Shown here: positions 323 to 60,439 of the stretch, one piece after another
Layout: each line of letters starts with the position of its first letter
How positions within the stretch are numbered: the stretch's first letter is position 1
Origin: Callorhinchus milii
Lineage: Eukaryota
Length of the DNA stretch: 64,000 nt
Direction: 5' to 3'
NCBI RefSeq assembly: GCF_018977255.1
Contig: NW_024704742.1
Location: forward strand, 33,234,001 to 33,298,000
Position numbers and translations under genes: made by a program
The notes under the pieces: model-generated
Databases searched by the model: none
Seen by the model: only the letters and a program-made list of their open reading frames with translations
Told to the model about the DNA's origin: nothing

Positions 323-566
323 CTATAAAAAAAGTTAAAAAAAATAAACCCTCCAGTAAACTCAAGTTAGCTTCACGTGTTTGTTCTAGAGTTACCCTGG
401 TTAATGGTTAGTGTATACTGATCACAACGTCACTTACACAACAGTGACCACTGTTCAAACACTAACTGTTCACACGTCACTAAAGCAGGCAGACCTCCAT
501 CAAGCGTTAGCTGGTCAGTGGTACTCCTTTGCAGGAGAAACAAGAATGCTACAAGCCAACCCAAAC

Positions 567-658
567 CTTTTAATAACTGATCCATCCTCTTTTACAATCT
601 CTTTCTGAACTACATTTGGGATGTAGTCTTTTCCGTGGCTCCCTGCAAAACTTAAAGC
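567..658 (-). CDS. ANK2: ANK2 extended C-terminal exon (ALSFAGSHGKDYIPNVVQKEIVKEDGSVIK-R)
   Basis: cccag|GCT...AG|gtttgg; 92 nt, phase 0 to 2; KEDGS(V/I)IKR motif. Confidence 0.88.
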
Positions 659-729
659 CTGGGTGAAATGGAAGACAATACAAATTTAAAGGAGGTGTGA
701 ATATTACTGCGATGACAATGTGTGCAATC

Positions 730-1850
730 CTTCTCAGTGAAGTCAATCAAAAAGGTAAGCAGGATATTGGGCTATATTGCTAAATCAGTTGAGTTTAGAA
801 GCAGAGCGCTGTCACATTCAGGCTATATAGTGCTCTGATCAGACTGAACCAAGTGCTGTAGAAAACAATGAGATTGATCCTCAGGAATGAGTTTTGAATA
901 ACGATTAGACAAGCTGCTTTATTCAGTCATGAGAGAAGATGACTCAAAGGGAACCTCATAGAGGTGTATAAAATTGTAATGGGATTAAAAAAGTAAACCC
1001 AGAACAATGTTTTAGAATGCACCAAGACTGTAGATCAACAGGACATAGGTTTAGAGTTGCAATTTCAGGACAGATAGCAGGAAGTTCTGCTTTACGCAGC
1101 TTGGCTCAGTGTTGGCACTCTTGCCTCTGAGTCAGAAGGTTGTAGGTTCAAATCCCACATCGGGTCTTGAACTCACATAGTCTAAGGTGACACTCCAATG
1201 CAGTGCTGGAGGTGTGTTGCATTGTCGGAGGCGCTGTCCTTCGGATAAGACTTTAAACCGAGAGCATCTGCCTGTTCTCCCCCGACCCCCAGCTCGGCTC
1301 TGAAACGCTGTACACTGTCCAGCACCTTGGGACGTCCTCCCGACGTGAAAGGCGCTATACAAATGTAATCTTGTTGTTATTATTGTTGTTGTTCAGGTGG
1401 ACATTTAAGATCCCATGTCACTATTTGAAAAGAGAAGGGAGTTTCTCCTGGTGTCCTGACCAATAAATAAATCGCTTAAATAAAATTGTTCACTAACTCA
1501 ATGGCTGTTTGTGGGACATTGCTGTGCACAAATTGCTGCTGCATTTGCCCACAAAATACAGTCACTCCACTTTACTGAATATCCTGCGAGGCATCTCAAT
1601 GACGTTGATAAGGCATTATATCAAATGCAGGGATTATTATTATTATTATTACTTAGAGGGTAATTAATGACTAGAACAAGTTTCCAGGAAAGGTATTTGA
1701 AGCCAGGACACTGGACTCATTTAAAAAGCCACTTGAAAGAATATTATGGGAAGACGATAGGGTGGGTATTCTCAAGGGATGAGATCAGATAGGTTGAAGA
1801 GCCTTCCTCATGCAAACTGATCTGGTGAACTTACGAAAAAAAAGATTGGT
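730..1850 (+). mobile_element. CR1-type LINE 3' fragment split by a SINE (LINE parts about 730-1099 and 1652-1850)
   Basis: CR1 ORF2 C-terminal motifs (GNLIEVYKIV, GHRFRV, FTQ) resume after the insertion; boundaries approximate. Confidence 0.65.
1100..1651 (+). mobile_element. tRNA-headed Deu-domain SINE containing an inserted L2-like 3' tail (about 1279-1393)
   Basis: A-box TGGCTCAGTG, B-box GGTTCAAATCC, Deu-type core (gacactccaatgcagtgctg...gtcggaggcgctgtccttcggataagactttaaaccgag), shared 3' module and (ATT)n tail. Confidence 0.75.
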
Positions 1851-2435
1851 GCAATGATCATATCTTTCCAGCAAATCAAAGTGGAGGTGCTGTGTCATTG
1901 TGATCAGAATAGGATCTCCGACTGTATGAAAAGCTTTAACGCTGCTTTTGAGACAACCATTAGCCACATCAGTTTCTACCTTATACAGATAGCACCTTAT
2001 TACATCTATTTTAAACGCTCGAGATTTGAAATACCTGAGGCAAAATATACTGAGGTTTTGCATTCTGAGGTGCAAGTAGTGCACACAATATTCAGCAGAT
2101 GGCATCATGGAGTGTCTGGAAATTATTCAGGTGAAGTGCTGCAATGCAGGGCTTTCACTTGGTCAGTCAATTATTTTCTATTTATAGTTTTGTTGTTTTG
2201 CCATGCCTCTGATGTTTTACAATGTATCTCACTTATCTAATGAACACACCAATAACCTGATCTTGCAGGCGATCACTTAGAGCAAAGGGGACGTATTCCT
2301 CAAGACCCACCTTATAACAACTTTGTTTACAAAATGCACTGCACAGAATTTTAGTCTGAGTTACATTTCGCAGCATAAACAACGCAGGGCAAGAAATTGA
2401 ACATTGAACATTGTGAGGTTCTAAATCTTTCGTAC

Positions 2436-2615
2436 CATATTGAAATCATCTTTGGCTGTGGGAAGGTCAGAGGATAATTTGGGGTCGCCCAGGTGTTTCT
2501 CCATTCTATCCCCATGGACCACGGTTGTCTTGACGACTCTGCTGACTTTGCGACCTGCAACTTGCTCTGACTGGAATTCAGAGCCAAAGGCCACTTGTGG
2601 TTCTGAGAAGGTTAC
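2436..2615 (-). CDS. ANK2: ANK2 extended C-terminal exon (VTFSEPQVAF...KVSRVVKTTVVHGDRMEKHLGD...AKDDFNM)
   Basis: ctacag|GTA...ATG|gtacga; 180 nt, phase 0-0. Confidence 0.9.
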
Positions 2616-2659
2616 CTGTAGATACAAATACAGGCCTTTACGTTATTAATGCAGAATAC

Positions 2660-2900
2660 AACCCAGTCAATCGGTGGATGACTTTTCCAGGGGTAACAAT
2701 CCCTTCAAAAAAAATAATAATTTGGTCACTCAGTCCATTACTGTTTGTGGGATGCTGCTGTGCACAATTGGCTGCTATGTTTCGCCCACAAAAATATTGT
2801 CAATTCACTTTACAGTATATTCTGTGAAGCACTTTGGTGAGACGTCTCAAAGACGTGATAAGGCACACAATATCAAATGCCAGGATGATTATTATTATTA
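2660..2900 (+). mobile_element. SINE 3' module (local family)
   Basis: ttggtcactc...ctgtttgtggga...caattggctgc...tatcaaatgc...(att)n, repeated at many sites in this window. Confidence 0.75.
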
Positions 2901-3548
2901 TAGAATAACAAGCAAAATCACTCTTTCTTAGAAATATAAATAGATGCTACTCCAAATGAAATAGCTCCAATGGCTCAGTCGCTAAAGGTAATGTCCATGT
3001 GACCTGAACATGCAAATTAGAAAGGTCTCAGATTCTGTGCCTGATTTTGTGGTCATTTAGTTACTTAAAACTGGAGTCACAGTTGGCCACTACAATTCAC
3101 CTCTGGATTTCTGGACTAGGGAGTGGAAAGAAATGAGGATTTTCTCCTCCCGTTCACTGTATAGTGACATCTGCTGGAATGCATAAATGTAATTGAGATC
3201 TGCTGACAAGAATATGATTGAGCATGGCTATGATGCTACTATAGGCTGTAACACTCACTGCTTAGTTGAAGAATGATCACTGAGGCAATGTTGGATCAAT
3301 GGCATCAAGAGAGGCAATCCAATGGATTACCCAAGAAATTTAAGAACAGAGATTTGTATAATCTGTAATTATGCTGCAATGTTGAGAATCAATGTAGAAT
3401 TGAGCTCAGACCTGATTGACTGAACTACTGAAATTTTAGTACAGAATTAGCACTAGTTTTGTATCAAATTAACAGGAACGTATGTAAGGCATTAATTCAG
3501 GAAAAAAAAGGACAAATCTCAAGTTATGAGTAGAGGGCTAAAGCTAAC

Positions 3549-3713
3549 CTCACTCTGCTCACTGTCACTTTTCAGTACAGTTCTCTTTAAGACTTTTGAA
3601 TACTCATCGCCATCTTCAATTGTGATCGGTTTCTGCTCTTCCCCTTGCATTACCACCTCCTCCGTTTCAATACCATCAGGTGAAACTATGCGTCTGATGA
3701 TTTTCCTGGTAAC
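3549..3713 (-). CDS. ANK2: ANK2 exon ([19 protein letters not shown]...[13 protein letters not shown])
   Basis: tttcag|GTT...GAG|gttagc; 165 nt, phase 0-0. Confidence 0.94.
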
Positions 3714-3854
3714 CTGAAAAAAAAGGAAAAAAATGGTTTATTCACCATTTTTATAGCAACTTTTCATGTCAAATAGTTTCAAATCACTTCACATGTAATT
3801 CCTGTCAAATTTAGTGTTTTTTTGGGAAACAGACATAAGGTCCACTGGCGGGTG

Positions 3855-4165
3855 GGTCGGTAACCCGAGGACACCAATTTAAAATAGTTGTTAAAAGAAA
3901 CAGAAGGGAGGTGAGGAGAAATTTTTTTACACAGCGAATTGTTCAGATCTGGAAAGGGTGGTGGAAGCCGATTCGATAACAACTTTTAAGAGAGAAGTAG
4001 ATAATTATTTGAGGACAAGTTTGCAGGGCTATGGGGAGTTAGCAGGGGATTTGAAAGCTCTTTACAAAGAGCTGGCACAGACACGGTGGGCTGAATGGCC
4101 TCCTTCTGTGCTGTATAATTGTAATGATTCTATGATATGAATGATATAATTGTAATGATTCTATG
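3855..4165 (+). mobile_element. CR1-type LINE 3' end
   Basis: TRGHQFK-, FFTQRIV- and FKREVD-type motifs followed by the tail gggctgaatggcctccttctgtgctgta and short terminal repeats. Confidence 0.7.
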
Positions 4166-8518: not shown

Positions 8519-9172
8519 CTGTGAAATGGAATTTCATATCATGGGAATATTAGTTATTTGGACATTATTGACTACAGTAGAGATTAAATGTTAGCTTTTG
8601 GAACTCTTCCACTGCTCACCATCCTTCACCTCTGCAGTACCCACTGGCCTTATTCAGATTCAGCCTAAACTTAAAAGCTGGTTTCCCCGCAGGTCTTAAA
8701 AGAGAACCAGCTTCCAAATTACGACAAAGTTACAGAAGCTTCCAAAATTCTGCATGATTGCATCATCTTAAATTTTACAACAATGGTCTTTAAGACTAAG
8801 ACCACGTGAAATGCTGAGCCTCAAATATCTGTGTGTCTAACATGCCGCCCTGGTGTTAATGACAGGAGCATGTAATATATGCTATCCAATTGGAAATTTG
8901 GGTATTCCACTCACTCATATTTCTCACTCCTTGACTGAACCTGCAGGATGCTGATTTGAGCTTTGACAGCCACCACGTGAAGAATTGAAATCTCTACACA
9001 CCAGGCAGAAATAGTATTGGTGTCCCAATGTCCCAACACATACGTGCAATTATTTAATATCTTCGTTCAAAGTTAAAATTTACTAAAATGACAACTACAA
9101 TTTGAAACAATAACTGAACAATGCTATAGTTCCTTTTCCTGACTATGAGCCAGATGGAAGACGAAAGCTTAC

Positions 9173-9497
9173 TTGGGTCCTTCAGTCTGATTGTCAGGAA
9201 GTGGCTTCTGCTCCACCTCAACCTCTCTTTCCTTTTGAGTTTGTTTCAAGAGCTCCGAGATTGATAGTTCTTCCCCTGATTCCTCAAATTCCTCCTGCAG
9301 CTTTGTTCTGATTTTGGGGCTGGCTTCCTGAGATCTACAGTAACTGATGGATACATCTTCCTCAGAGACGAGTGGAGGTTGTGCTTGAAAGCTGTCGACT
9401 TGTTGATCATGTCCTACTCTGGCTGAATCTTTAGCTTTTGTGTGCCCAAACCTCATTGCCTTTGAACTATAGAGATCTTCAGACAGAGCAGAGAAAC
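9173..9497 (-). CDS. ANK2: ANK2 exon, C-terminal domain (GFSALSEDLYSS...PPLVSEEDVSISY...TEGP)
   Basis: cctag|GT...AA|gtaagc; 325 nt, phase 1 to 2. Confidence 0.88.
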
Positions 9498-40952: not shown

Positions 40953-42759
40953 CTGAGTACATCCAAGCAGCAATGGAAGAGAGAAGGTGAAGATATCAAA
41001 CCACACTGGATTTTATTACAGAAAACATTCATTGTTCTTCCCCCTTTATTTTGCTATTCAAATGTTTGAAGGTCTGCTCTTCTGTTGGTAATAATCAAAA
41101 TGCAATCAGTACCTTCTCTGTTATTTCCCTGGGATGATTTGCTTAATCAATTTTAATATTTGGAATGTATATACCACTGCAGTCAAAGCTTTCATTACCG
41201 ACAATAATTGCCAATCAATAATGTACTCAATTATTTGGTATTATGTTTCAGGAGTGGACAAATTTATCTTTTGAGAAATTGTTTTCATAACAGTCAGCAA
41301 AATACGAGTAAACAGTTAAACAGTTAAACACTTTCTTACTTTCCTGATTTCCTTCCTTGTTCTCCACACTGTTTTGAGCCACTTGGTGAAGCCCTGGCTT
41401 CACTGCAGCAGGTTGGGTAACTCAGTGATCACTATTGTGCCACTGAAGCTCAGCTCACAGAGGCTTCCACTGTTGAAATCTTCCAACAATTAACAAGTCC
41501 TTCTTACCTGCATAAGTGATGAAGCCACAGAGCAGAGAAAAAGCTGATGGGCAGAATGGGGGAAGGAATGGCAGGAGGGTATGAAGCATAACACACTTCT
41601 ACCACCATGTGCAGGATATTTCTAACCAAATACCAGGATAGATTATCTGGGCATATATCTGCAGTTCAATTTTTATATGAGTTTTCAGACATTAATGTTG
41701 TTGAACCTTTCATCACCAGCTGCACCATAGATGATTTGTCTCTGTCTTGGATTTATTTCACCTTATACCAACAGTATATTTCACAGGATTTCCATAAAAC
41801 CAATTGAATTGTTTAATTTATCATGTTGCAAAACCCGCCTCCTCTCCCAGGTGAGTGAAGAGAAAGTTCTGAAAGTAGAAGTATCCTTTTAATACACTTC
41901 ATGTCCTGAGCAAATATTGTAAAACGAATGCAGCATATTATATTATTCATAAAGCACCACCACATCTAGCAGCAGAATGTTATAGTGCAGCCTAGTTGTG
42001 ACGCAGTAGCTTGGGGACTATAAAGTCCCAACCCACTTCATAACTGAGCACGATGCCCGTCTGCATTCACTGGGCATGTGCACCGAAAGTTGTCTGTTCA
42101 AAACCCCAACTAGCTTCTCATGCTAAAATATAGCTGACTTCTGTCCTGATGACTGGAGGTTAGTCATTTTCTCGTGGTTTTTTTTTGTGGTTTGAAATAA
42201 GTCGGCCATAGGTCTGGAAATGTTCCAGTGAGTAAACATCAAGGACGACCAACCATTCACACAATAATGTTATAATCTTATAATGAAGCACAGGGTTCTG
42301 CTGTGGAAATGTGTGGAGATCAAACGTTATGGAGATCAATATTAAGTGATATCCCATTGAAGCTTCATTCTTTCTTTGCCAAACCGAAATTCATCTTTGA
42401 GGCTTTAACTGTCTATTACATAAAGCTGCATGTTTATTGCATTGCCCAATTTCATACGTTTGCCCCCATGCTGCTGTAACTGCATTGTAGTGACAGACTG
42501 ATTCTTATGGAAGGAACTTTGTTTTGGTAAATGCGAACTTTCAGGCAAATGTCATCCATATTTCATCTGTTCTGAAACATCGCATCTTACACTCGCTGTT
42601 TCTTCCACTTTCTACAAATATGTGTTGTCAAACTCATGGAGAATGTAATATGGGACCTTTCAAATATAATCAGGTCATGATGGGTTTAACATTACCATTT
42701 GAATGACAGACAAGAGAGCTGGCGTTCAATTGCAATTATTTGCATATTTAAACACTTAC

Positions 42760-42984
42760 CCAAGGAACTGGGCACCAGATGGTCCCACTTCAATCAGTCG
42801 ACTTGTGAGACCCTCTCCTTCCACCATGGGGGGCATTGTGGCCAGTCTATGACGTTTAACCAGGCGACAAGTCACACGGGTTGGAGCCGTGCATTTCCGG
42901 GGAGGAATGATAATGCGAAGTCCATTGTGACGGCAGCCCCGCATGGATCCTCCACGGGCATCCACCATAAAACTAACCAGGAAC
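42760..42984 (-). CDS. ANK2: ANK2 exon, ZU5-A spectrin-binding domain ([12 protein letters not shown]...GPSGAQFLG)
   Basis: ttgcag|G...GG|gtaagt; 225 nt, phase 2-2; contains the DAR spectrin-binding motif. Confidence 0.97.
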
Positions 42985-45900
42985 CTGCAATTGAATACAG
43001 AGGGTTTATCCATTGGCCACTTATTTCTAATCAGTGACTAGTTGTCTCTCAGGGGAGGAAAACAGTTGCCGGCTGTTCAGATGAGGGAGAATATGGAATA
43101 AAGGAACGCTCATGCAATCTTTGACAGCTCTGAATACTCCTAGGTCAAGTGTGGTACATGAGTGAAGGGCTGAGGTTGAGTTCCCACACTTCACCTAGAT
43201 GATGTAACCTCAGCTAAAATTAATTCCAATTTCTGCTAGACTAGGTGACATTGGCACTCCTAAATTGAGTCAGATATCTCATTTAAGTGTGAGCTTCTGA
43301 TCTACGTGATAAATTCAGGGTTTTTTGTGCTGTTGTATTAGAGGCAGTAAAGAGACTCCTCCTTTCAAATCCAAGCCACATCAGATCTTCTTTCCAACTG
43401 CTCAATTCAGTGGTAAAGACTTGTTTTTGATCTAAGGTTTCACTTTTGCCATTAAAACTACGACCTTTAAAGATTTAGCACCACCGAGGTGATGTGGGTT
43501 CATGTGCACTGAAGAGTAAACTCTGACAACAAACATCTTTCACTTGTGGTCCTTCACTTCTAATCCAAAGACTCAGCCCACCATTGTTACCAACATTGTC
43601 ACCTAGTCCTCTGCAAAAAGTTAGCAAACACTATAAATGGGTAACATGCAGGATAGTTTCCTTATGTAAAATGTTCTTTATTTTTGCTCCATGGATAAAA
43701 TCCACAAAGTGGGATTGTTTTTCATGTTACTGTGGGTGCAATGGTCTTCAACATCCTTCATTCAGATAAGTTTCCAAACATTGCATGATTATTGCTTTCC
43801 AGCAATTCAGTTTCATAGAAAAATTGGGACTGGCACCTCTCTAAGGAAGCATTCTTTTTTGTAAACGTTAGGGAGTTTCTGAAAATATCATCTTCACATC
43901 ATGCAGGTACAGCAGCTAGTTTAGAAAGAAACTCTGGGAACACCATGCCATCCTACATAGGACAAGGTCCAACACCACTGGAAATGACCCTTTGTTTTAC
44001 ATGAGCATCAGATTAATGAGATCATATTGCCATTGTTATTCCTTGATTGAATTTTCCTCCAAGAGCTGAGCCTTTGCAATAAACCAGCTTTGAGACTAAA
44101 AGGCTTACAGTTTTCTCTCTTAGACATCCAGACTTGAGGTCTCCTATTGGGACTTTGGTTCTCCATAACCCAGCAAAGTGATAATTGCTTCAAACTATTT
44201 CAGTAACCCCCCAACACTGCCATCATGTTACCTTAGTTATTAATTTCTTCTGGATAAATGCAAATGTTTAAAAACATGATACAGATAGGTGCTTGATAAT
44301 TCCACTGCTCAGTGATGTGATGACATTAAAATCGCAGTTGATCACCGGTTCATAATCTGAATCCTTAAGAATTTCCAGCCCCATATAGATCAAATACAAT
44401 TTAAACCTGCGCTGCGCATTTCTCTACATTAGTTGCATTAACTCTCAGAACTAACAGTTAATTTATAGTAACAGGTAAAAAAACAGTAAGAACATTAAGG
44501 TTAAAAATTGCTTTCAGTGTTACATCAATCATCATTCGACATGTAGGCTCTTGATAGAACTTCACAAAAGTCTAAACGGAATTTGTACCCAATTATTAGG
44601 GAGAAATTCCACCTGGATTGGATTTACTTTACGAACAATGATCTCAGCCTTAACTTTGAAGATGGTTTTCTCCAGTTCTGAAAGAACTTACAGAAACAAT
44701 GGCTTCAAAATTTGTCTATATTTAAGAATTCATAAAATTTTAGGCGTTCTAAAATGACACATTCATAGAGAAAATCTAGACACAGGTAAAATTTCTCTCC
44801 CTATATCTACATCAATTGGATTACGGATCAACATGAATTGTGAAGCAAATTTCATCAAAGGCCATTACCCTCCCTACTCCTCTAATCGTTTGCATTTCTT
44901 TTTACTTCAGTGGTTATTTAGTCACAAATATGCAGCATACATTCAATCACTGATTTCAGTCACGCTTTGGAAAACAAAGATTTTTCACACCAAACACAGG
45001 TCAAATTGTCTGTGTAATTCATTTCCAAGATATAAGATATGCAGTTATTTCTTTGTTAATTAGTGCACTCCTATGGGAAAATAAAACTGCAAATTTCAAG
45101 TGTTAATACAAAATTATGAAGCGGATACAGAATGGGAGTAGCAGAATACCCAGCTTATTTCTTTATCAAGGAGCAAGTGAGTTATAAAGATCATCCTCAC
45201 AGAGGAATAAACCAGATATTTTGCCAGTCCTTGCTGATATTCTTGATACAACGGGTGAGGAGATGGTTCGCTATACATCAATTTTGATTTGATTTATTTC
45301 TCTTGTTTTAAATGGTGATTGTTACCAGAGCCAAACCTGTCACGTGAACAAGCTGTATCCTCTCGTTAAAACACAGTGGGCTGCAATTTTGAAAATCCAC
45401 TTAACCATGGAAGTCACCATCTCTTTCAGCTTCAAATATTATTCCCTTCATGAGTCAGTCGTAGTCATGACAAAACATGAATCATAGAGCAATCTTGAAT
45501 ACCACATGGCTCCAAAAACAGAAAATATATATTTTTTAAATTCTGAGGCCAAAACGGGGAAGAAAGATTGCTGCTCAATTCCTTATAATCGACCATAAAT
45601 GTGATCCTCTCAATGGTTGGGAAAAGCAGATTTATGTAAGAAATCTGAGAGTGAATATTCCCGTCTCACCGGAGTGGGATAACAGCAGTATTTTTGCCGC
45701 ATTCACCTATCTCAGCACCAGTTGTATAAAGAGAGACAGACACTGGAATCAGTGTGATTGCTTCAAAATGGGTCAGTGCTCTACATTATTGAGGCCCGTA
45801 AACCTAGGGTACTAACCCTTCCTATGGGAAAGCATGAGCATTTTAAGTAACTAAAGATACAACTGAAACAGCTTAGTTGATTAAGAAATGTTATGTCGCC

Positions 45901-46268
45901 ATAATTCAAGCAAAATGTGAGAAAATTGTCAACCACATTGGTGCTGTTGCAAACCAATCATCTTATAAGATGTCTTATAGTCTTATTTGTCGATTTTGTT
46001 TTTCCCCTTTTCCCCATTGTATTCTACTGTGCTTCTTTTTTAACGCATTTGCTTGTTCAAAGTAACTGATGGGATAATTATAGGCATCTCCGTTCTGGAT
46101 GACTTGGCTTGAGTTACATCATAGCACTGTCAGGTGCCTGTGTTTGCAGGGTGGGGAGGCTCATCAATGTACGTCGAAGCACTGAAGAATTTTGAGGCTG
46201 GGTTACGTGGAGCTGAGAAAACAAAGAAAGCCAATGGAAGTGCATGAAGGCACAGTGCAAATCTTCAC

Positions 46269-46301
46269 CTCGATTCACTTTCGGGGACTGGCGAGGAGCA
46301 G
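46269..46301 (-). CDS. ANK2: 33-nt alternative exon before ZU5-A (CSSPVPESES-R)
   Basis: tcttctgtttcag|C...AG|gtgaag; phase 2-2; peptide resembles the 33-nt pre-ZU5 exon of ANK3 (CSSPLPQYDSR, from memory). Confidence 0.75.
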
Positions 46302-46377
46302 CTGAAACAGAAGATGCGTATGAGCACGAGAAAAGCATGGTGCCAGGATGACAGCAGTTAATTCACAGAAAAGCTAC

Positions 46378-46392
46378 CTGACAGTGATATCG
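46378..46392 (-). CDS. ANK2: Candidate 15-nt microexon (DITV)
   Basis: ttgttgccttgcag|CGATATCACTGTCAG|gtagct; phase 2-2; weak donor. Confidence 0.4.
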
Positions 46393-47420
46393 CTGCAAGG
46401 CAACAACAATTAAACCACAGCATTGTTTGCACGTAAAGGATTCTTAAGAAATCATTCATTGTCCTAATGCCCAAGGGTTAAACATGGCTTTGCCTTCATA
46501 TTGTCAATCAGAAGTTTGCATTCTGGTCTATTGCCATGTTCTACTTTTTCTTTCAATTAAGTAATAAAGAAAATGTAGTGATTCCACATGGCCACCAACC
46601 GACAGGAGTCTGCAGTAATGATAATAATAAATATAATCCTTATGTCCGTTACAACGCCTTTCACGTCAGGAAGACTTCTCAAAGCGCTTCACAGGATATA
46701 CTATGAAGTATAATGACTATACTTTTATCTGCAGGCAATGAATTGGACTCGCAGTCCAGAGTTTAATCTTCTAGCATTCTGATTTTAATTATAATCAGAA
46801 CAATGTCATATTCTGAACTTTTCTCTGGTTTCTTTCTTGTTATGTTTTCTCCCACACAGTGAGTTTGTGCGTAAAAATGCAATATTCCATTAGGCCTGGA
46901 AGACATCAACCAAATCAAAGCGTTATATATTTCTCAATCCAGTCGTTGCACCACCACATTTTAGAGGTGTTTCCACCTCGTAGACACGGTGATTAACATT
47001 CAAATTGATTTTACCCCTGGAAATAATATTGAAAGTAATGCTTTACTGACCAAATGCTAAGCAAGATAATCAGAGGCACTGTGGTGGGGGTATTAATTCA
47101 TCTCTGTTGTTTACTGTGAATTCTGCAAACCTTCAAAAAGGGATTTGCGATATTCAATAATATATAGATCTCCCTATTATTTCTACGAATCCATATATAT
47201 TGTTGAATATCCCAAATTCCCTTTGAAGTTTTGCAGTATTGATAGGAAACAACAAGTATTAATTAAATCTACCTATAGCAAGTGGAGGGAAGGATGTTTC
47301 CCAAAACCTAGGACAACTCACGTGGTGAGTTCAAAAGCAGCCTAAACCAATGAGTTAGAAATATCCTCCCTCTTCTGCCGATGAAATTATTTGGGGCAAT
47401 TTCAATCATGAGCGCAGGCA

Positions 47421-47788
47421 GGTCACAGGCAGCACCGGGGTCACAGGCAGCCGTGGGGTCACAGGCAGCCCCGGGGTCACAGGCAGCCCCGGGGTCACAG
47501 GCAGCTCCGGGGTCACAGGCAGCCCCGGGGTCACAGGCAGCCCCGGGGTCACAGGCAGCCCCGGGGTCACAGGCAGCCCCGGGGTCACAGGCAGCCGTGG
47601 GGTCACAGGCAGCCCCGGGGTCACATGCAGCCCCGGGGTCACAGGCAGCCCCGGGGTCACAGGCAGCCCCGGGGTCACAGGCAGCCCCGGGGTCACATGC
47701 AGCTCCGGGGTCACATGCAGCCCTGGGGTCACATGCAGCCCTGGGGTCACATGCAGCCCCGGGGTCACATGCAGCTCCGGGGTCACAG
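47421..47788. repeat. GC-rich minisatellite, 18-bp unit GGGGTCACA(G/T)GCAGCCCC, about 20 copies
   Basis: Directly visible tandem array with a few variant units. Confidence 0.97.
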
Positions 47789-47996
47789 AGAGAGCTTGGA
47801 CCTCATTAGATTGAGCACGAAAATCTTGTTGGGGATGGACACAGTTGGACAAGATGGAGAGAGTGAAGATAAGGAACTGGATTGACGAAGCTTTCCATAT
47901 AAAACCATACCTTCCAGTGGTCAATCCCAACTGGAGCTGTGGGAAACGACACTCATTTCACGGGCTTGTTTTGGAAACTGAAGCATGAGGCATGAC

Positions 47997-48019
47997 TGTG
48001 TGTGTGTGTGTGTGTGTGT
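47997..48019. repeat. (TG)n microsatellite
   Basis: About 11 consecutive TG units. Confidence 0.9.
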
Positions 48020-48861
48020 TGGGGGGAGAGTGGGAGGAGAATACTTATTTCTAAATATTTTTGAAAGTAGCTGTGGTCCTTCCATTTAAGAAAAATGGGT
48101 ATTCTGTCCATACTGAAGCTATTAACCTATCAAAAATCACGCTTTTTTCTCCCTGGATTTCTCTCTCATGTTTTATTGCACCACAGTTACTGTTGATTTG
48201 TTCTGTCACCAGCTGCTCTGCTGTGAATGTGTTCGCTTTGAAGCCATGATGAATGATGATCATGAAAAGTTGTACTCAAAAGTCAGCCATCTGCTCTTCC
48301 TTTAAAAGTCCTACACAGCCTTTAAGTCATTTAAGTGGACACTTAAATTGGTGACATTATGTCAAAATGGTTCATTTGCTGAAAAATTGCATCTGGGATG
48401 AACTGAATGAGCAGACACTTGAAATCTGGTACACCATTACTGCATGCTATATATCACTTGTTGCAACTTGGGTGTGAATCTTCCAGCCACCCATTTCAAA
48501 TCAATATTTTCTTTAACTGAAGAACAGCAAAATACTGTACATCATTAATTTCAGTTTAGGAAGGTAAGACTCTTTTGGACACATTTTTGAAATGAGCAGA
48601 GCTTTCATTCCAGAAAAGATTTGCCTTCCAATTCCTGGTGTCCCAATTCTTTCCCAAAAGGAAATGTTAAGTGGTCTGTATTTTCTATGAAACATAGGAA
48701 CTTTGTTGGTCTGGGGACCGTTCCGTACGACACTAATAGGAGGGCATGGTGCTGCAGTATGTTACTGTACCAGTCCACTGTTCAATGGAGTGGTAGGGAA
48801 CAAATTCGCCCCTCACAGTTCCCCATGCCATGAAGAGGAGGTGGTGAGGCCACATACTTAC

Positions 48862-49041
48862 CCATAGGGAGGGACAGTAAAATCAGAGGGAGAGGCATCC
48901 AGGGCCACTGTTGTGTACCTCCTAATAGGTGACTCAAGAGTGTCACTAGCAGAGCCCTGGAAGTAGGTTGTCTGCCCACTCTCTTGGCACTGGAGCACCA
49001 ATGGCCCACGCCACCGTCCAGCCTTGATTTTCTGAAAATTT
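48862..49041 (-). CDS. ANK2: Candidate 180-nt cassette exon ((G)NFQKIKAGRWRGPLVLQCQESGQTTYFQGSASDTLESPIRRYTTVALDASPSDFTVPPY(G))
   Basis: CTAAC branch point about 24 nt upstream, tctttag| acceptor, GG|gtaagt consensus donor, phase 2-2, no stop in frame. Confidence 0.6.
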
Positions 49042-51159
49042 CTAAAGATAAGTATCATGAAGCAGGTTAGAGAAATGCACAGAGCCTAAGAATACTGATT
49101 CATTCAAAATGTTCTTGGAAATAAGTTAATCGTGATCTGGTGTTGGTTGATTTTGTTCAGTCCTTGAATATCCACACAAGATGCTGTTTGATGGTCCTCA
49201 TATGTTTATGCAGTCAATCATTGAGAACTAGATCAACAGCTATGTTCAACACATTGCTATCAGGTACAAGATATTTTTAAAGATAAAAATGTCAAATGCG
49301 TGTGATTAATCACTCTAATAGTTAATACAAAATCTGGCAGAGAAGGAAATAAACACTGAATGCAGAAAATAACTACTGAAAAATAAGGCTGATATAAACA
49401 TTGTCTATACTACTTTTTCCCCAAATGTGAGCTGTAAAATAAGGGGATTTATGGACTGTTATTTCCAGTGCGAATTTTACACAGTTTACTGAGACTATCC
49501 TTGAGCTTGATTACATTGTTTGTTTGGTCAATCAGGTGTCTAACAGATGTAGAAAGAGTATCAAAACCACAGAGTTGCACATATTTTTACCATCTGTGGA
49601 GGGAAATTTCCCTGTGTCTGGAATGGAAAGCATACTCCCTCCCTGGAGGAATGCATCCTACTTTCCTAGTGCAGGAGAGTATTAGGTGCAGATGGGCAAG
49701 AGCCAAGATTTAGAAACCCCAGACTGTGCATTGAGAGTCCTACAAGAGTTCAACCAGCCCAAACCACACATTTTACTGTTGTCAATACTGTCTGGCAAGC
49801 TTCCAAATACTTATTAAACTAGAGCCACCCTATCCACAAGGACTTCCGTTTGTAGGACTAACAGGAGCCAAGTGAGAAGAATCCCCATCTCCAGTGACTG
49901 GTTTGTACCTCCAAATCCTGCTGATAAGCTAGGATGATCTGTCATCAAAAGGGTCCTGGAGTACTGCAGACTTGTCTAGGAACCAGATTACCAAAACAAC
50001 CACAGAGGATTGACTCAATTCTGATATTTAGTTGCCAAGCACGTCACCTTGGAGCCAGCTCAGCCCCCAGGGTCCATCGGTTCCCTCCTCCATCTACCCC
50101 AAGAGAGGACAGTCACTAATTAGTCACTTGCCATCCATTCTTTGACAAAAGTGATTAAAAAATGTTGGCTTCTTGCTGGTTGAGACGGCAGCAGATAGGA
50201 GATGACTGTGAGCTGCAATATTCTGGAAACTACAACCAAAGCCCACGGTGCTCAATATGCTGTATTTGCCATTGCTCCTTTGAAAGAGCTGCAAAATCCG
50301 TATGCTTCTCCGGACATAGCAACTACCTCCAAAATGTCTGTTTGTTGGCAGCCTTGTAATTTGTAGCAGTCGCCATAATCTTTATAAAACTACTGTTACA
50401 TCTCTGAACACTGACAGAATACCTAACAAGATCACAGTCCTTCATTTCTTGCGAACATCATGAATTAAGAAGTAAAAGTTATAGAAAATATCAGAAAAGC
50501 ACAGCAGACCCATCAACATCTGAAAGAGAAACCTCGGTTAATGTTTCAGGTGGAATAAGGGGTGAAAATTCTATGTCCCTTAACAGATATGATGAAATAT
50601 CAACCTGTTACAAACATTGTAATGTTCTCCCTCTAGTTTCTAAATGTATTCAGAAATCTACATTTATTCTTTGCCCAAACAACAAGTGTGCTATATTCTG
50701 ACTGGATTACTCAGAGTTTCATATCCAGTTCACGAAGCAATAAAACGTATGTTTCAGTTCCAGTTTAAAACAATGCTTTATATAGGGTTTTATATATTTG
50801 GTTATGTAGTTGGTGCTAGTTTAGAATTATGGTCAGCACAGTTTACACAACAATCTGTTTGGGGATTCAAAAGTGAATTAAGCGTGCTTTGAAACTATCA
50901 CAGAAAATGCTTAAATTAGCAACTTGACAATAAATTACAACCAGTTTAATTAACAATGTTTTTTTTGTCTTATTTTAGGTTGAACAATATAAAACTCAAA
51001 TAATTTGTAAATCCTATGATGAAGGAAGCATGTCTTGCTGATACAGAACAGGATAACATAGCCTCGAACTCTCCTCCTCACATCTCCTTCCCCCCATTTC
51101 CATGCCTCACCAGGCTCCACTCACAAGCTTATACATAGATTTTCTTATTTGTTGCTTAC

Positions 51160-51263
51160 CCTGAATGGATTGGGCTGGAGGAAAGAGCCACATTGTCCAA
51201 GTTCTCCTGTTCCCAATTTAAGCGGTAGGTGGAATCCTTATCTGGGCCTTTGGCCAGAAGTAC
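51160..51263 (-). CDS. ANK2: ANK2 exon ([35 protein letters not shown])
   Basis: gcag|GTA...GG|gtaagc; 104 nt, phase 0 to 2; [16 protein letters not shown] is an ANK2 motif. Confidence 0.93.
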
Positions 51264-51639
51264 CTGCATGCACAAATGGACAATTTCTTTGAGGCAACAA
51301 GTTGTCTCTGTAAATACTAATGGCTATTTAAAAAGTTAAATCATATTTAAAAATAGTAATGATTCACTTGAATAGATGTAATAGCATTTAATTCTACATT
51401 TGTAAAAGAAATCAATTTCAGTTTAACATTACTCCACACAATAACTAGACAATTCCCATCCTCCAACACATTTACACTTTTAATCAAAGAAAAATGTTCA
51501 GCAACTGACTTTGCTTTTTATAACCCACGTAAACAGATAATTTTGTAAAACTGTCTTCATAATTACAATGAACTATAACAAGAAGTACATTAAGATGCCT
51601 ATGCAAGAGAATATTTCTCAATGAACTGAAAAGGAATAA

Positions 51640-52008
51640 AGTCTTACACTTGTGTTCAAATCCCTTCACTCTCTGGCACCTCCCCACCTCTCCAACTTCC
51701 TCACTCCCCAATCCACCACCTGACGCCTCCACTCGGCTGGTACGGGCCTCCTGCTCGTTCCTCGTGCCCTGCGCTCTATCATTGGAGGTCGCGCATTCAG
51801 ACATTACGTCCCGAAACTGTGGAATGCTCTCCCTCAATCCCTCCGCCTTGCCCCCTCTCTCCCCTCTTGCAAGTCCTGCCTGAAAATCTTCCTTTTCGAC
51901 CGTGCTTATGGACACCTCCCCCCTGGCTCGGAGTCAGGCTGCGCCACTGTTAAGCTCTCTGAGACGCTACCCTGGTGGAGAGTGCTATACAAGTGTAAGT
52001 TGTTGTTT
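51640..52008 (+). mobile_element. L2-clade LINE 3' end
   Basis: Close similarity to the reverse complement of 12328-12712, ending gtgctatacaagtgtaagttgttgtt. Confidence 0.8.
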
Positions 52009-52139
52009 TTACAAGATGCAGACCAAACACAACAACATAAATAGTCACTAAAACGTCACAGAGAAGCATTCCCCAGAAATTTATAACCATTAGCACATCA
52101 CAATGATATTCTGAATCTTGGAAACACAATGTTTCATAC

Positions 52140-52242
52140 CTGGCTGTTAGTAGCAGCGACGAACTCCTCGATCATGGCACTGTCCCTCTGGTATGGGCCA
52201 TGGCTTGGTGTGTTGGACCTGTCTGAACTGAAGGATCGCAGG
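52140..52242 (-). CDS. ANK2: ANK2 exon (LRSFSSDRSNTPSHGPYQRDSAMIEEFVAATNSQ)
   Basis: cattag|C...CAG|gtatga; 103 nt, phase 2 to 0; a possible in-frame alternative acceptor lies 15 nt inside (exon start 52227). Confidence 0.92.
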
Positions 52243-54129
52243 CTAATGGATGGGTGGGCAGGTTGCCATGAAAATGGAGCAGCACGATGATGATGGGATG
52301 GGCAGGGGAATGAAGAAAGCATGCGGTTAGCATATTATGCAACTTCCAGGGGGCTGGGAATTAGCATAAAGAAAAGTGAATTCACTGACAGTGCTCATCA
52401 GATTCAGCACTAAATAGACAGAATATTCAACCATCATTAACCACTGGATGAACCAAATTGGGGTGGAGGTAGTTTTGGTTATGGATGGAAACCAATCAAT
52501 AGTTGAACCAATTCAGCAAGCGATTATTCGGACACATGATACATAAAAGAAACTGGGGTGAAATTTGTGGCATTTTAATAGCATAATCTTTGTGAAGATT
52601 ATCACAAGGAATGCCTTGTGAAATGGCGCAAATTTCACCCAGTGTAGAAATGACAAGATGTTTCGCTCAAACCTATGTTGCTTCTCTCTCGAGACTAAAA
52701 TGATTCTGAAAATAGGAACTGAAGTGGCTTTTAGAGCCACTCTATTTTCTCTGCTGGGTGAGTGACCCAATACATAAACAAATCTCTGTGCAGCAAAGAG
52801 CACCAGGTATCTCATGCAATTAAAATAATTAAATAACATTGCATTAATTCAAACTATCACCAATCTAAGAGGATAAACCATAACACAAAAAATCTTAACA
52901 GAGAAATTTAATTAGATAATGTTCACCTCAATACTTAAAGTCATCTCTTTTCAGGGGCTTCATTTTAATTCTGTATGGACTGATTAGGCACCTAGACACT
53001 GAGCACGCACTCTTGTGCAAACCCCTGGAAGATATACTGAGCCAAGCTACAGTCAAGTCAACCATATGCTTTTTAAAGCAATGTGACTGTGCTGTGTCCC
53101 AAGCGGTTACAGAGTTTTATGGCTCCAGGTCTATAATTTCTAGTTTCCTTCAACCCTGTAAGTTCACATAGTGAACTCGAGTTAATTGAGTAACATAAAA
53201 AATAATATAATGGAATCCTATGGAGGTTTTTAACCCAATCACTGGCAACAAGTGTACATCATTTGACCTTCAATGATAATAATAATAATAATAATGAATG
53301 TTATTTCTATGTAAAATACAAATATCTAAATAAAATCCATGCAGGGAAGAGCATAAATCAAAATCTTTGTCCTCAGCGGCCATGTATTTGTGAGAATGTT
53401 TTTGGGGGAGGGCGGAGGGGAGTTGTTTTCGTGACTTAATTTACCCAATTTAATCCAATGTGTGTTCAGCAAGTCTCAGTTGAAAGTATAGTTTCAGAAT
53501 CTATTTCACATTTTGTGAGAATAATTACACCACAAAATGATTAACGGTATTCAAAAACATACTGATACAACGACTTGCAAAGTGTCTCAAAGTGTTTCAG
53601 ATAAATGGTTTTGGAGACCAAGCGGAGAGATAACTGTGGGCAAAATCAAAAAGGTAGCGTTTCAGGAGGCTTTTAAAGACCGTTAGGCAGGGGTTGAGGC
53701 TAGAGAGGGAGATCCACAAGGTCGAGGCATAATGAATGAAAGCTCGGTCACTAATGGTGGGGCAAAGGGGTCAAAGTGAACAATGATAATTCTGCAGGTG
53801 CGATTGCCCACCGTGTGGGGAGGTTACAAATCCCAAGGGCACTGTTGCAATGAGACTGGAAACGTCACATAGATAAGAAAAACAATCAATAGCAAGTGGT
53901 TGTAAAGTCAACCTCTTTTTTTTCTTCTTAGTGCAATTTTTTGAGCGGGTTTGGGATTTAAGCTGAGTTTCACTGAGCTGGTTTTGTGTTATTTTCGCCC
54001 CGCGTGACTCAGCTAGAAATGTGCTCTTAAACAGTTAAGTGTTGGTGAGTGTGAAGGCAGCGAGTGCAGCGATGGAGATGGGAGAGAAGGCAGAGAGCTG
54101 CAGCCGCTCACTCGGAGCTCTAGCGTTAC

Positions 54130-59753: not shown

Positions 59754-59898
59754 CTGTCTGAGCGCTCTCCTAAACGCCCTAATCCTCTGTACATCATATT
59801 GTCCAGATAACGACTGCTGGGTAAAGAGTCATCTCCAAGCTCTTTCAGGTCCTCTGCTCTAAGATACTCTCCTCCATCTCCAGTCATTGTATCATCTC
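59754..59898 (-). CDS. ANK2: ANK2 exon, linker after the ANK repeats ((G)[47 protein letters not shown])
   Basis: cccaag|GA...AG|gtagtc; 145 nt, phase 1 to 2. Confidence 0.93.
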
Positions 59899-60439
59899 CT
59901 TGGGAGCAAGAAAGAGTTTGATCAGTCAGGAGACGTACGTCGGTTGCTATGCAATCCCAGAGTAAAACCACGCAGCTGGAAACTAGCCACTCATGGCAAT
60001 GCGGTAATGAAGCAGGAAGTGCTCATCACTAAAGGCTTAAGAAAATGTATAAACAGAACCTACTGGCTGCAATACATCACAACAATTAAACACACAGCAA
60101 CTGAGGTAAGTTGGATTCTCTCCATTACACAGAATTGGGAGGACAGGTGACTAAAATACAAGGTATGAATCAGAGTGACACTGTACACATCCTGACAAGA
60201 TGTGGAGCAAAAAAGGAAATCTACTTGACCACAAACAATCAAACGTCAAAATGGTCTCAATGTAGCTGTAGCATTCTAGCAATTGTAACATTTTAGTCAG
60301 ATTTTTATACATTGAGAAGACTCATAATGTCCAACTTTATTAGAATAGTCTAATTCAAATCGGTGATCAGATCCACAGGATAGTGCAGTCATGGAATGCT
60401 TCTTACATAGAAAAACACCTTTAAAACACACAATTCTGC

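What the first reader, a model, noticed from the sequence alone, without database searches (positions are those of the whole stretch)
48862..49070. Unrecognised 180-nt in-frame cassette exon just before the spectrin-binding ZU5 domain
Seen: on the minus strand there is a CTAAC branch point (49070-49066), acceptor tctttag|, exactly 180 nt with no stop in the frame inherited from the phase-2 upstream exon, and a consensus GG|gtaagt donor in phase 2. It would add 60 aa (NFQKIKAGRWRGPLVLQCQESG...DFTVPPY). Knowledge: small exons at this junction tune ankyrin-spectrin binding, and I do not recall such an exon in mammalian ANK2. Inference: a lineage-specific or ancestral insert that modulates ZU5 function.
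Basis: partly seen in the sequence, partly recalled or inferred. Interest (0 to 1): 0.75.

Follow-up and report, generated by a model that had tools for sequence, protein, structure and literature searches.

The report
Alternative end exon truncating ankyrin-B
The predicted 180-base exon is real and is spliced into ankyrin-2 messenger RNA, but the assembled transcripts run straight through its predicted downstream splice site into a stop codon, so it looks like an alternative last exon that makes a short ankyrin-B without its spectrin-binding half, not an in-frame insert.

Summary
The sequence features are exactly as described. They are a CTAAC branch point, the acceptor tctttag|A at 49042/49041, 180 open bases in phase 2, and GG|GTAAGT at 48862/48861. 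The gene is an ANK2 orthologue. RNA-derived contigs of two studies join the upstream donor 51160 to the acceptor 49041, so the exon is real. No contig splices at 48862. A 3345-nt spliced contig (run X1) and contigs of X2 and X3 all cross it unspliced, X1 for 470 nt more. Read through, the frame gives ...VPPYG then TAA, and the TAA lies inside the GTAAGT. The supported reading is therefore an alternative 3'-terminal exon. Its product would be ANK repeats plus linker plus a 60-aa unique tail, without ZU5-UPA-death domain. The cassette reading is not excluded. This is the best in-phase donor-like site in the 8.2-kb intron, and the downstream exons lay outside the stretch I laid. The tail has no family, no homologue and no paralogous copy. 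Conservation, the poly(A) site and the protein are untested. Modest interest: a new member of a known kind.

The parts
49066..49070 (-). CTAAC branch-point-like motif, 25 nt upstream of the acceptor AG
   Evidence: Read directly. Its function is inferred from the consensus only.
49042..49065 (-). Pyrimidine-rich tract and acceptor AG (49043-49042)
   Evidence: Sequence. The acceptor is used: the joint 51160/49041 has GT..AG ends (CT..AC on the + strand) in X1 (contig of 3345 nt, 101 nt on the shorter side) and in X4 (30 nt on the shorter side).
48861..49041 (-). Coding part of the alternative exon. The first base completes Gly, followed by 59 codons NFQKIK...TVPPY and a final Gly codon GGG.
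   Evidence: Covered by contigs of X1, X2, X3 (partly) and X4 (49041-48985). Single copy in the 991-Mb genome.
48858..48860 (-). In-frame TAA stop that lies inside the donor-like GTAAGT
   Evidence..VPPYG*. The ORF listing gives 48858..49085.
48856..48861 (-). GTAAGT, a consensus 5' splice-site hexamer. Its use was not observed.
   Evidence: the best in-phase donor-like site of the intron, and one of two GTAAGT. Contigs of X1, X2 and X3 cross it unspliced.
48392..48857 (-). Read-through stretch, at least 466 nt, acting as 3' untranslated region in the X1 transcript contig
   Evidence: X1 record 2 lies on 49041-48392 without a break, and the record ends at 48392. The X3 contig 48580-48962 also spans the donor.
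48172..48177 (-). The only canonical AATAAA downstream of the stop before the next exon, with a U/GU-rich stretch about 30-45 nt after it. A candidate poly(A) signal, not shown to be used.
   Evidence: No listed hexamer lies within 35 nt upstream of 48392, so the real 3' end is unresolved.
51160..51263 (-). Constitutive upstream exon (104 nt, [34 protein letters not shown] + GG) whose donor joins to 49041
   Evidence: joints 49041/51160 and 51260/52137 with 'cut +3'.
52140..52242 (-). Next upstream exon (103 nt, ..SLRSFSSDRSNTPSHGPYQRDSAMIEEFVAATNSQ)
   Evidence: It has the same length as mouse Ank3 exon 28 (103 nt; PMC4449188).
59756..59899 (-). Linker exon part ([48 protein letters not shown]) also carried by the X1 contig
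   Evidence: The loose end of X1 record 2 behind 52244 matches 59756-59785 exactly. It is 96% identical to shark ankyrin-2b.
42760..42984 (-). First ZU5 exon (225 nt), skipped or never reached in the truncated transcript
   Evidence: Pfam ZU5 E 3.4e-20. Best PDB match is Ankyrin-2 6m3q/4d8o at E 1e-45.

Best explanation
The 180 nt are the coding part of an unannotated alternative 3'-terminal exon of the ANK2 (ankyrin-B) orthologue. The donor of the exon ending ..SSSPIHSG (51160) is spliced to the acceptor at 49041 instead of to the 33-nt microexon or the ZU5 exon. The donor-like GTAAGT at 48861 is not used, and the transcript runs on for at least 470 nt.

Translation adds 60 residues (NFQKIK...TVPPYG) and stops at the TAA inside that hexamer. 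The product would be a short ankyrin-B with ANK repeats, the autoinhibitory linker and a unique, probably disordered tail. It would lack ZU5-ZU5-UPA, the death domain and the C-terminal regulatory tail, so it could hold membrane partners but could not tie them to spectrin.

Shown: the acceptor is used, the transcript is unspliced across 48862, and there is an in-frame stop.

Inferred: polyadenylation in the intron, translation, the domain content of the 5' part of the contig, and any function as an uncoupled or autoinhibited competitor.
For::
- X1 record 2 (3345 nt, mean word depth 19.7) lies on 52244-52137 | 51260-51160 | 49041-48392, with GT..AG joints.
- The same 51160/49041 joint stands in an 87-nt contig of X4, from another study.
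- The X1 record is not broken at 51160 or at 48862, so no rival path of comparable depth survived assembly at either point.
- The record ends at 48392. Beyond that X1 has only 0.47 to 2.6 depth.
- The X3 contig 48580-48962 and the X2 contig 48100-49502 also cross 48862 unspliced.

the record's loose end matches 59756-59785 exactly, so it is a spliced mRNA of at least four exons with 2695 nt upstream of the junction.

the frame reads ..VPPYG then TAA.

the gene is ANK2. The ZU5 exon is nearest to PDB Ankyrin-2, and the linker exon is 96% identical to shark ankyrin-2b.

(passages of PMC3663501 and PMC5779224): engineered ANK-repeat plus B-linker constructs fold and are kept off the lateral membrane by the linker. 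The inhibitory segments AI-c and AI-b lie in the linker, and AI-a lies in the far C-terminal tail.
Against: - No poly(A) tail or cleavage site was seen. None of the 15 hexamers I scanned for (canonical and variant signals) lies within 35 nt upstream of 48392. The only AATAAA is at 48177, and an X1 contig at depth 2.6 (48100-48269, running past the stretch end) passes it.
- Contig depth is one mean figure per contig. The 470-nt read-through could therefore be low-depth unspliced RNA appended to a well-covered mRNA. Intron background in X1 is 2.6 to 5.
- Logan contigs drop rare variants.
- The hexamer at 48861 is a perfect GTAAGT in the one phase that keeps the frame. I estimate roughly a 1-2% coincidence if it is not a splice site (my estimate, not a computed test).
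- The downstream exons were outside the laid stretch, so a 48862 junction could only have appeared as a loose end. Only 24 of 95 loose ends were shown.
- All four runs are 'RNA?' by guess. X2 covers the intron evenly and may be DNA or nuclear RNA.
- No evidence of conservation or of protein.
Confidence: 0.6

Rival explanations
1. One reading: a true in-frame cassette exon. It would be spliced 51160>49041 and 48862>46301 or 42984, and would insert 60 residues between the linker and the first ZU5 domain of full-length ankyrin-B. The read-through contigs would then be splicing intermediates, or the poly(A) arm of a composite exon.
For: - Perfect GTAAGT in phase 2, which keeps the frame. It is the only 7-of-8 donor among 238 in-phase candidates, and one of two GTAAGT in 8175 nt.
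- The acceptor is proven.
- The same junction takes other small cassettes in other vertebrates: 20 of 102 proteins, and the mouse Ank3 33-nt exon.
- In any phase-2 exon with GTAAGT, read-through gives an immediate TAA. So the stop is what a skipped donor would produce.
Against: - No joint or shown loose end at 48862 in four runs.
- 3 of 3 runs covering the site cross it unspliced.
- The X1 contig is not broken there, as it would be if a well-covered spliced path existed.
- No ANK2 protein of up to 2000 aa in the databases holds a similar insert.
Confidence: 0.2
2. A real but functionless by-product: a cryptic acceptor in a long intron caught by premature termination or slow splicing. It would give an unstable or untranslated transcript whose 60-codon frame is open by chance.
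For: - The tail has no Pfam family.
- There is no true homologue among 1.84 billion representatives. The 3 hits are unrelated tandem-repeat proteins.
- The word searches found none.
- There is no copy at the two ankyrin paralogue loci.
- Two of three sense frames are open across the exon.
- No clear poly(A) signal sits near the contig end.
Against: - The junction is seen in two studies.
- In X1 it is the path that survived assembly of a contig with mean depth 19.7, i.e. apparently the main form there.
- Good branch point, pyrimidine tract and exon-like GC of 0.528 against 0.404.
Confidence: 0.2

Closest known systems
Alternative last exons / intronic polyadenylation giving truncated proteins, for example the Ankrd11 intron-8 isoform that keeps only the Ank-repeat region (passage of PMC8820740)
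   Same: An exon inside an intron of the full-length gene is spliced to and then not spliced out of. The frame ends shortly after, and the product keeps the N-terminal repeat domain and loses the C-terminal domains.
   Different: Here no poly(A) site has been mapped. The exon carries a perfect, frame-keeping 5' splice-site hexamer, so it may be a composite (dual-use) exon. Ankrd11 is not an ankyrin in the ANK1-3 sense.
Engineered ankyrin-B 'ANK repeats + B-linker' truncations (He et al. 2013, PMC3663501; Chen et al. 2017, PMC5779224; passages)
   Same: Same predicted domain content up to the end of the linker: 24 ANK repeats plus the AI-c and AI-b segments, with no ZU5-UPA-DD. Those constructs are stable and autoinhibited.
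   Different: Those are laboratory constructs of mammalian protein. The natural transcript here adds a 60-aa tail of unknown effect, lacks AI-a, and its protein has not been seen.
Small alternative exons at the linker/ZU5 junction. These are mouse Ank3 exon 30 (33 nt; PMC4449188), the 12-aa insert in tetrapod ANK2 isoforms, and the 16-aa insert in Heterodontus francisci ankyrin-2b X9.
   Same: Same intron, same phase-2 context, alternative use. The window also holds the 33-nt exon (46301-46269).
   Different: Those are 33-48 nt in-frame cassettes present in full-length proteins. This exon is 180 nt, unrelated in sequence, and is seen only as a transcript end.
Known truncated ankyrins, as I know them from these papers' titles, abstracts and the passages read. 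They are AnkG119 (PMC2120834, search listing only), the ankyrin-3 isoforms lacking the N-terminal repeats (PMC2132472, listing only), and AnkG107 / sAnk1 (mentioned in PMC4449188).
   Same: Ankyrin genes make short isoforms by alternative transcript ends.
   Different: The MBD-less forms are truncated at the N-terminus and keep the spectrin-binding or C-terminal parts. A form that ends before ZU5 did not turn up in my searches. Those searches do not cover subscription journals.

Membership tests
ANK2 / ankyrin-B orthologue (host gene) | ZU5 exon and linker exon closer to ankyrin-2 than to ankyrin-1 or ankyrin-3 | tested here: met
   PDB matches: Ankyrin-2 E 2.8e-45, Ankyrin-3 3.3e-40, Ankyrin-1 2.4e-34. 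The linker exon is 96% identical to shark ankyrin-2b, and all named hits are ankyrin-2. Two other ankyrin loci exist in the genome, at 88% and 77% identity.
Cassette (internal, in-frame) exon | Upstream junction into the exon observed in RNA | tested here: met
   The joint 51160/49041 is seen in X1 and X4, two studies.
Cassette (internal, in-frame) exon | Downstream junction out of the exon observed in RNA | tested here: not met
   No joint or listed loose end at 48862. X1, X2 and X3 contigs cross it unspliced. Caveats: the downstream exons lay outside the laid stretch, 71 of 95 loose ends were not shown, and contigs drop rare forms.
Cassette (internal, in-frame) exon | Length a multiple of three with no stop, and matching phases | tested here: met
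   180 nt, phase 2 in and out.
Alternative last exon / intronic polyadenylation isoform | Spliced into from a constitutive donor and continuous past any internal donor | tested here: met
   X1 record 2 lies on 51160|49041-48392 without a break.
Alternative last exon / intronic polyadenylation isoform | Mapped cleavage and poly(A) site with a signal | tested here: inconclusive
   The contig ends at 48392 with no A-tail reported and none of the scanned hexamers within 35 nt. AATAAA lies at 48177-48172 only. Contigs cannot show RNA ends.
Alternative last exon / intronic polyadenylation isoform | Stop codon in the terminal exon | tested here: met
   TAA at 48860-48858, directly after ..VPPYG.
Conserved coding exon | Orthologous or paralogous copies with the frame kept | tested here: not met
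   None in protein databases, in shark ANK2 isoforms, or at the paralogue loci of the same genome. Orthologous genomic loci of other cartilaginous fishes could not be searched with these tools.

The most novel reading that the evidence does not exclude
The exon is a dual-use (composite) switch at the linker/ZU5 boundary of ankyrin-B. When the strong GTAAGT donor is used, it inserts 60 residues directly in front of ZU5. When the donor is ignored, the TAA built into that donor ends the protein and the transcript is polyadenylated in the intron. The result would be a spectrin-uncoupled, linker-autoinhibited ankyrin-B that competes with full-length ankyrin for membrane partners. In at least one sampled tissue (run X1) this short form would be the main ANK2 product.
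Probability: 0.15. Interest if true: 0.55.

Novelty: new member of a known kind. Interest (0 to 1): 0.3.

Why it matters
Ankyrins work by coupling membrane proteins, held by the ANK repeats, to spectrin, held by ZU5. A natural isoform that stops exactly between the two halves would be a built-in uncoupler or decoy. It corresponds to laboratory constructs already shown to be folded and autoinhibited (PMC3663501, PMC5779224).

If it is abundant in some tissue, as the X1 assembly hints, gene models for this species miss a major ANK2 product. It also shows how a prediction from sequence alone can be right about the exon and wrong about its kind, because the donor consensus hides a stop codon.

If it proves lineage-specific and untranslated, it is an ordinary example of transcript noise in a long intron.

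Tried and rejected
- **The look-up of sequencing runs.** No listed holder is on record as RNA. The four runs used are 'RNA?' by guess. X1 and X4 are shown to hold spliced RNA by their joints. X2 covers the intron evenly and says nothing on splicing.
- **Parts without cover.** These include the upstream exon in X2 and X3. They are no finding, because human-like contigs are filtered out.
- **Choice of laid stretch.** I laid 48100-52400 and left out the downstream part, which holds an 18-bp x 20 minisatellite at 47421-47788 and the highly conserved ZU5 exon. Junctions from 48862 to 46392, 46301 or 42984 were therefore not directly testable.
- **Protein searches with the tail.**
  - Word search, longer proteins 105-2000 aa: none.
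  - Word search, 32-104 aa: none.
  - HMMER over 1.84 billion representatives: 3 hits, all unrelated tandem-repeat proteins with 3-8 summed stretches, rejected.
  - Own-genome six-frame search: two weak hits (E 0.13 on C2, E 2.4 on C386) that are not at ankyrin loci, rejected.
- **Other library searches.** Pfam on the tail: none. Rfam on 42000-53000: none.
- **ANK3-paralogue intron.** It is only about 1.3 kb, and its best in-phase candidates are TE-derived. The ANK1-paralogue upstream exon was not found within 10 kb.
- **Shark 16-aa insert.** It has no counterpart in the window intron; the score is at shuffle level.
- **Literature.**
  - No paper holds both 'Ank2' and 'intronic polyadenylation'.
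  - The searches gave no natural ankyrin isoform ending before ZU5.
  - The organism-name guess gave nothing relevant.
  - The human ANK2 exon paper (PMC2630508) is not held, so its exon table could not be checked.
- **Earlier findings of this scan.** None.
- It failed because the query was under 40 aa. I used the neighbouring linker exon instead.

Full report
**1. Observation**

On the minus strand the sequence reads ctaac (49070-49066) ... tatctttag|AAATTTTCAG ... CCCTATGG|gtaagt. The acceptor AG is at 49043-49042, the exon runs 49041-48862 (180 nt), and GT is at 48861-48860.

- The upstream exon ends ..CCA ATC CAT TCA GG| at 51160.
- The first ZU5 exon starts |G TTC CTG GTT at 42984.
- So the exon is phase 2 at both ends and keeps the frame, coding G-NFQKIK...TVPPY-G.

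The consensus hexamer GTAAGT therefore contains an in-frame stop at 48860-48858 if it is not spliced.

**2. Is it more than chance?**

Openness alone is not strong evidence.
- Stop-to-stop ORFs of 45 aa or more number 219 in 24 kb.
- Two of the three sense frames are open across the 180 nt.
- 59 open codons have P of about 0.026 at local composition.

The splice signals are better evidence.
- I enumerated all in-phase, open AG...GT candidates of at least 30 nt in the 8175-nt intron (51159-42985).
- Of the 238 found, this site alone has 7 of 8 matches to AGGTAAGT.
- GTAAGT occurs only twice in the intron.
- Exon GC is 0.528 against 0.404 for the intron.
- The 301 nt around the exon are single copy in the 991-Mb genome, so it is not a repeat.
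- Rfam finds nothing in 42000-53000.

**3. The gene**

- The ZU5 exon (Pfam ZU5, E 3.4e-20) matches PDB Ankyrin-2 best: 6m3q at E 2.8e-45 and 4d8o at 1e-44. Ankyrin-3 follows at 3.3e-40 and Ankyrin-1 at 2.4e-34.
- The linker exon 59756-59899 is 96% identical to ankyrin-2b of two sharks, and every named hit in the 120 rows listed, of 2250 below E 0.001, is ankyrin-2.
- The genome has two further ankyrin loci, on C7 (88% identity) and C28 (77%).
- Exon sizes around the finding are 103, 104, [180], 33 and 225 nt. They parallel mouse Ank3 exons 28-31, which are 103, 107, 33 and 225 nt (table in PMC4449188).

**4. RNA evidence**

One search for runs listed no holder on record as RNA. It did list small assemblies that hold the exon. 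I laid the contigs of X1-X4 on 48100-52400.

X1 record 2 is 3345 nt with mean word depth 19.7.
- It lies on 52244-52137, 51260-51160 and 49041-48392. The joints have ends CT..AC on the + strand, which is GT..AG on the gene strand.
- Its loose end behind 52244 matches window 59756-59785 exactly.
- It is therefore a spliced ANK2 mRNA of at least four exons, with 2695 nt upstream of the junction. That is room for about 898 codons, which fits the ANK-repeat domain and linker given that human ZU5 starts at residue 961 (PMC3663501). I did not see that part of the contig.

The same 51160/49041 joint stands in an 87-nt contig of X4, from a different study, with 30 nt on the shorter side. The predicted acceptor is thus used in two studies.

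The predicted donor is not seen in use.
- X1 record 2 continues unbroken 470 nt past 48862 and ends at 48392. Beyond that X1 has depth 0.47 to 2.6.
- The X3 contig 48580-48962 and the X2 contig 48100-49502 also cross 48862 unspliced.
- So 3 of the 3 runs that cover that base show it unspliced.
- No joint from 48862 is listed, and no loose end at 48862 appears among the 24 of 95 loose ends shown.

Contigs end at unresolved branches. The X1 record being unbroken at 51160 and at 48862 suggests that, in that sample, the path into this exon and through its donor is the dominant one. This is an inference about how the assemblies are made, not a measurement.

In X4, contigs start or stop exactly at 51160 (records 23-25). 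That fits several competing continuations there.

**5. Limits of that evidence**

- I chose a stretch that left out the downstream exons. The reasons were an 18-bp x 20 minisatellite at 47421-47788 and the very conserved ZU5 exon.
- Contigs give one mean depth each, cannot show RNA ends, and drop rare variants.
- Human-like contigs are filtered out.
- X2 covers the intron evenly and may be DNA or nuclear RNA.
- Intron background in X1 is 2.6 to 5, so the read-through could be thinly covered.
- No poly(A) site is established. None of the 15 hexamers I scanned for lies within 35 nt upstream of 48392. The only AATAAA before the next exon is at 48177-48172, followed by a U/GU-rich stretch.

**6. 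Best reading**

The exon is an alternative last exon. Splicing 51160>49041 is followed by read-through, and translation stops at the TAA within the donor-like hexamer.

The predicted product ends ..[14 protein letters not shown]...TVPPYG. It keeps the ANK repeats and the linker and lacks ZU5-ZU5-UPA, the death domain and the C-terminal tail.

By established knowledge, ZU5 is the spectrin-binding site, and deleting its first exon abolishes spectrin binding in Ank3 (PMC4449188). Such a protein therefore cannot link partners to spectrin.

Laboratory constructs of ANK repeats plus the B-linker are expressed, and the linker keeps them off the lateral membrane (PMC3663501). The linker holds inhibitory segments AI-c and AI-b, while AI-a lies in the far C-terminal tail (PMC5779224). 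The short form would thus be partly autoinhibited, with the AI-a site free. All of this functional part is inference.

**7. The cassette reading is not dead**

Given that the acceptor is real, a perfect GTAAGT as the first in-frame stop, in the one phase that keeps the frame, is an unlikely coincidence. My rough estimate is 1-2%. In any phase-2 exon with GTAAGT, a skipped donor yields an immediate TAA. A composite exon, acting as a cassette in some tissues and as a terminal exon in others, would explain both facts. I give cassette use as the main role 0.2, and the dual-use version 0.15.

**8. Conservation**

None was found.
- The tail has no Pfam family.
- It has no word-sharing protein of 105-2000 aa or of 32-104 aa.
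- It has no true hit among 1.84 billion representatives.
- It has no copy at the paralogue loci.

Among the 124 proteins then held (P0001-P0124), 102 show the [20 protein letters not shown] junction.
- 82 have no insert.
- 19 have a 12-aa insert, of which the window's 33-nt exon at 46301-46269 looks the counterpart.
- 1, Heterodontus francisci X9, has an unrelated 16-aa insert with no counterpart in the window.
- None has anything like the 60 residues.

No protein 100% identical to the window's linker exon was listed. This species' own ANK2 models of up to 2000 aa are apparently not in that collection, so absence of the exon from it is weak evidence. Orthologous genomic loci could not be searched here.

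**9. Comparison and novelty**

It works like the many alternative-last-exon isoforms that keep an N-terminal domain. One example is the Ankrd11 intron-8 form that keeps only the Ank repeats (PMC8820740).

Among ankyrins, the short forms I met in the papers read or listed are truncated at the N-terminus or keep spectrin binding. My four searches found no natural ankyrin ending before ZU5. They cover open-access text only, and the human ANK2 exon paper is not held.

I file it as a new member of a known kind.

Noticed in passing
window 46269-46301 (-): A 33-nt phase-2 microexon, ag/CTGCT...TCGAG/gt, reading G|CSSPVPESES|R. It has the same place, length and first bases as mouse Ank3 'new exon 30' (PMC4449188). 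It sits at the same junction as the 12-aa insert seen in 19 of 102 ANK2 proteins. It is probably the conserved neural microexon at this junction.
   Followed up: partly
I gathered no evidence for or against its use.
   Followed up: no
protein P0005 (Heterodontus francisci ankyrin-2b X9), between SSSPIHSG and [12 protein letters not shown]: A 16-aa insert, YWSKMVQDIGTLQPAG, at the same junction. It is unrelated to the window's exons and has no counterpart in the window intron. The junction seems to gain lineage-specific alternative exons repeatedly.
   Followed up: partly
window 47421-47788: A minisatellite of an 18-bp unit (GGTCACAGGCAGCCCCGG) x 20.4 copies with 94% matches, inside the same intron. 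It gives long open frames on both strands.
   Followed up: no
window 51556-51987, and L008 about 9025-9200: A high-copy element with word depth of 500-4000 in all four runs. Its ORF motif RAF.HY.P.LWN.LP recurs in the ANK3-paralogue intron. It is probably a SINE or other transposon family of this genome.
   Followed up: no
window 48381: Run X2 carries one extra A in the A5 run at this place, 11 nt from where the X1 transcript contig ends. It is a length polymorphism that may contribute to the contig break.
   Followed up: no
window 40955-41053 (-): An ORF KLHLPNSPPPLNEGESLVSRILQLGPSGTKFLG that resembles the end of the first ZU5 exon ([26 protein letters not shown]). It looks like an internally duplicated small exon after ZU5 exon 1.
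   Followed up: no
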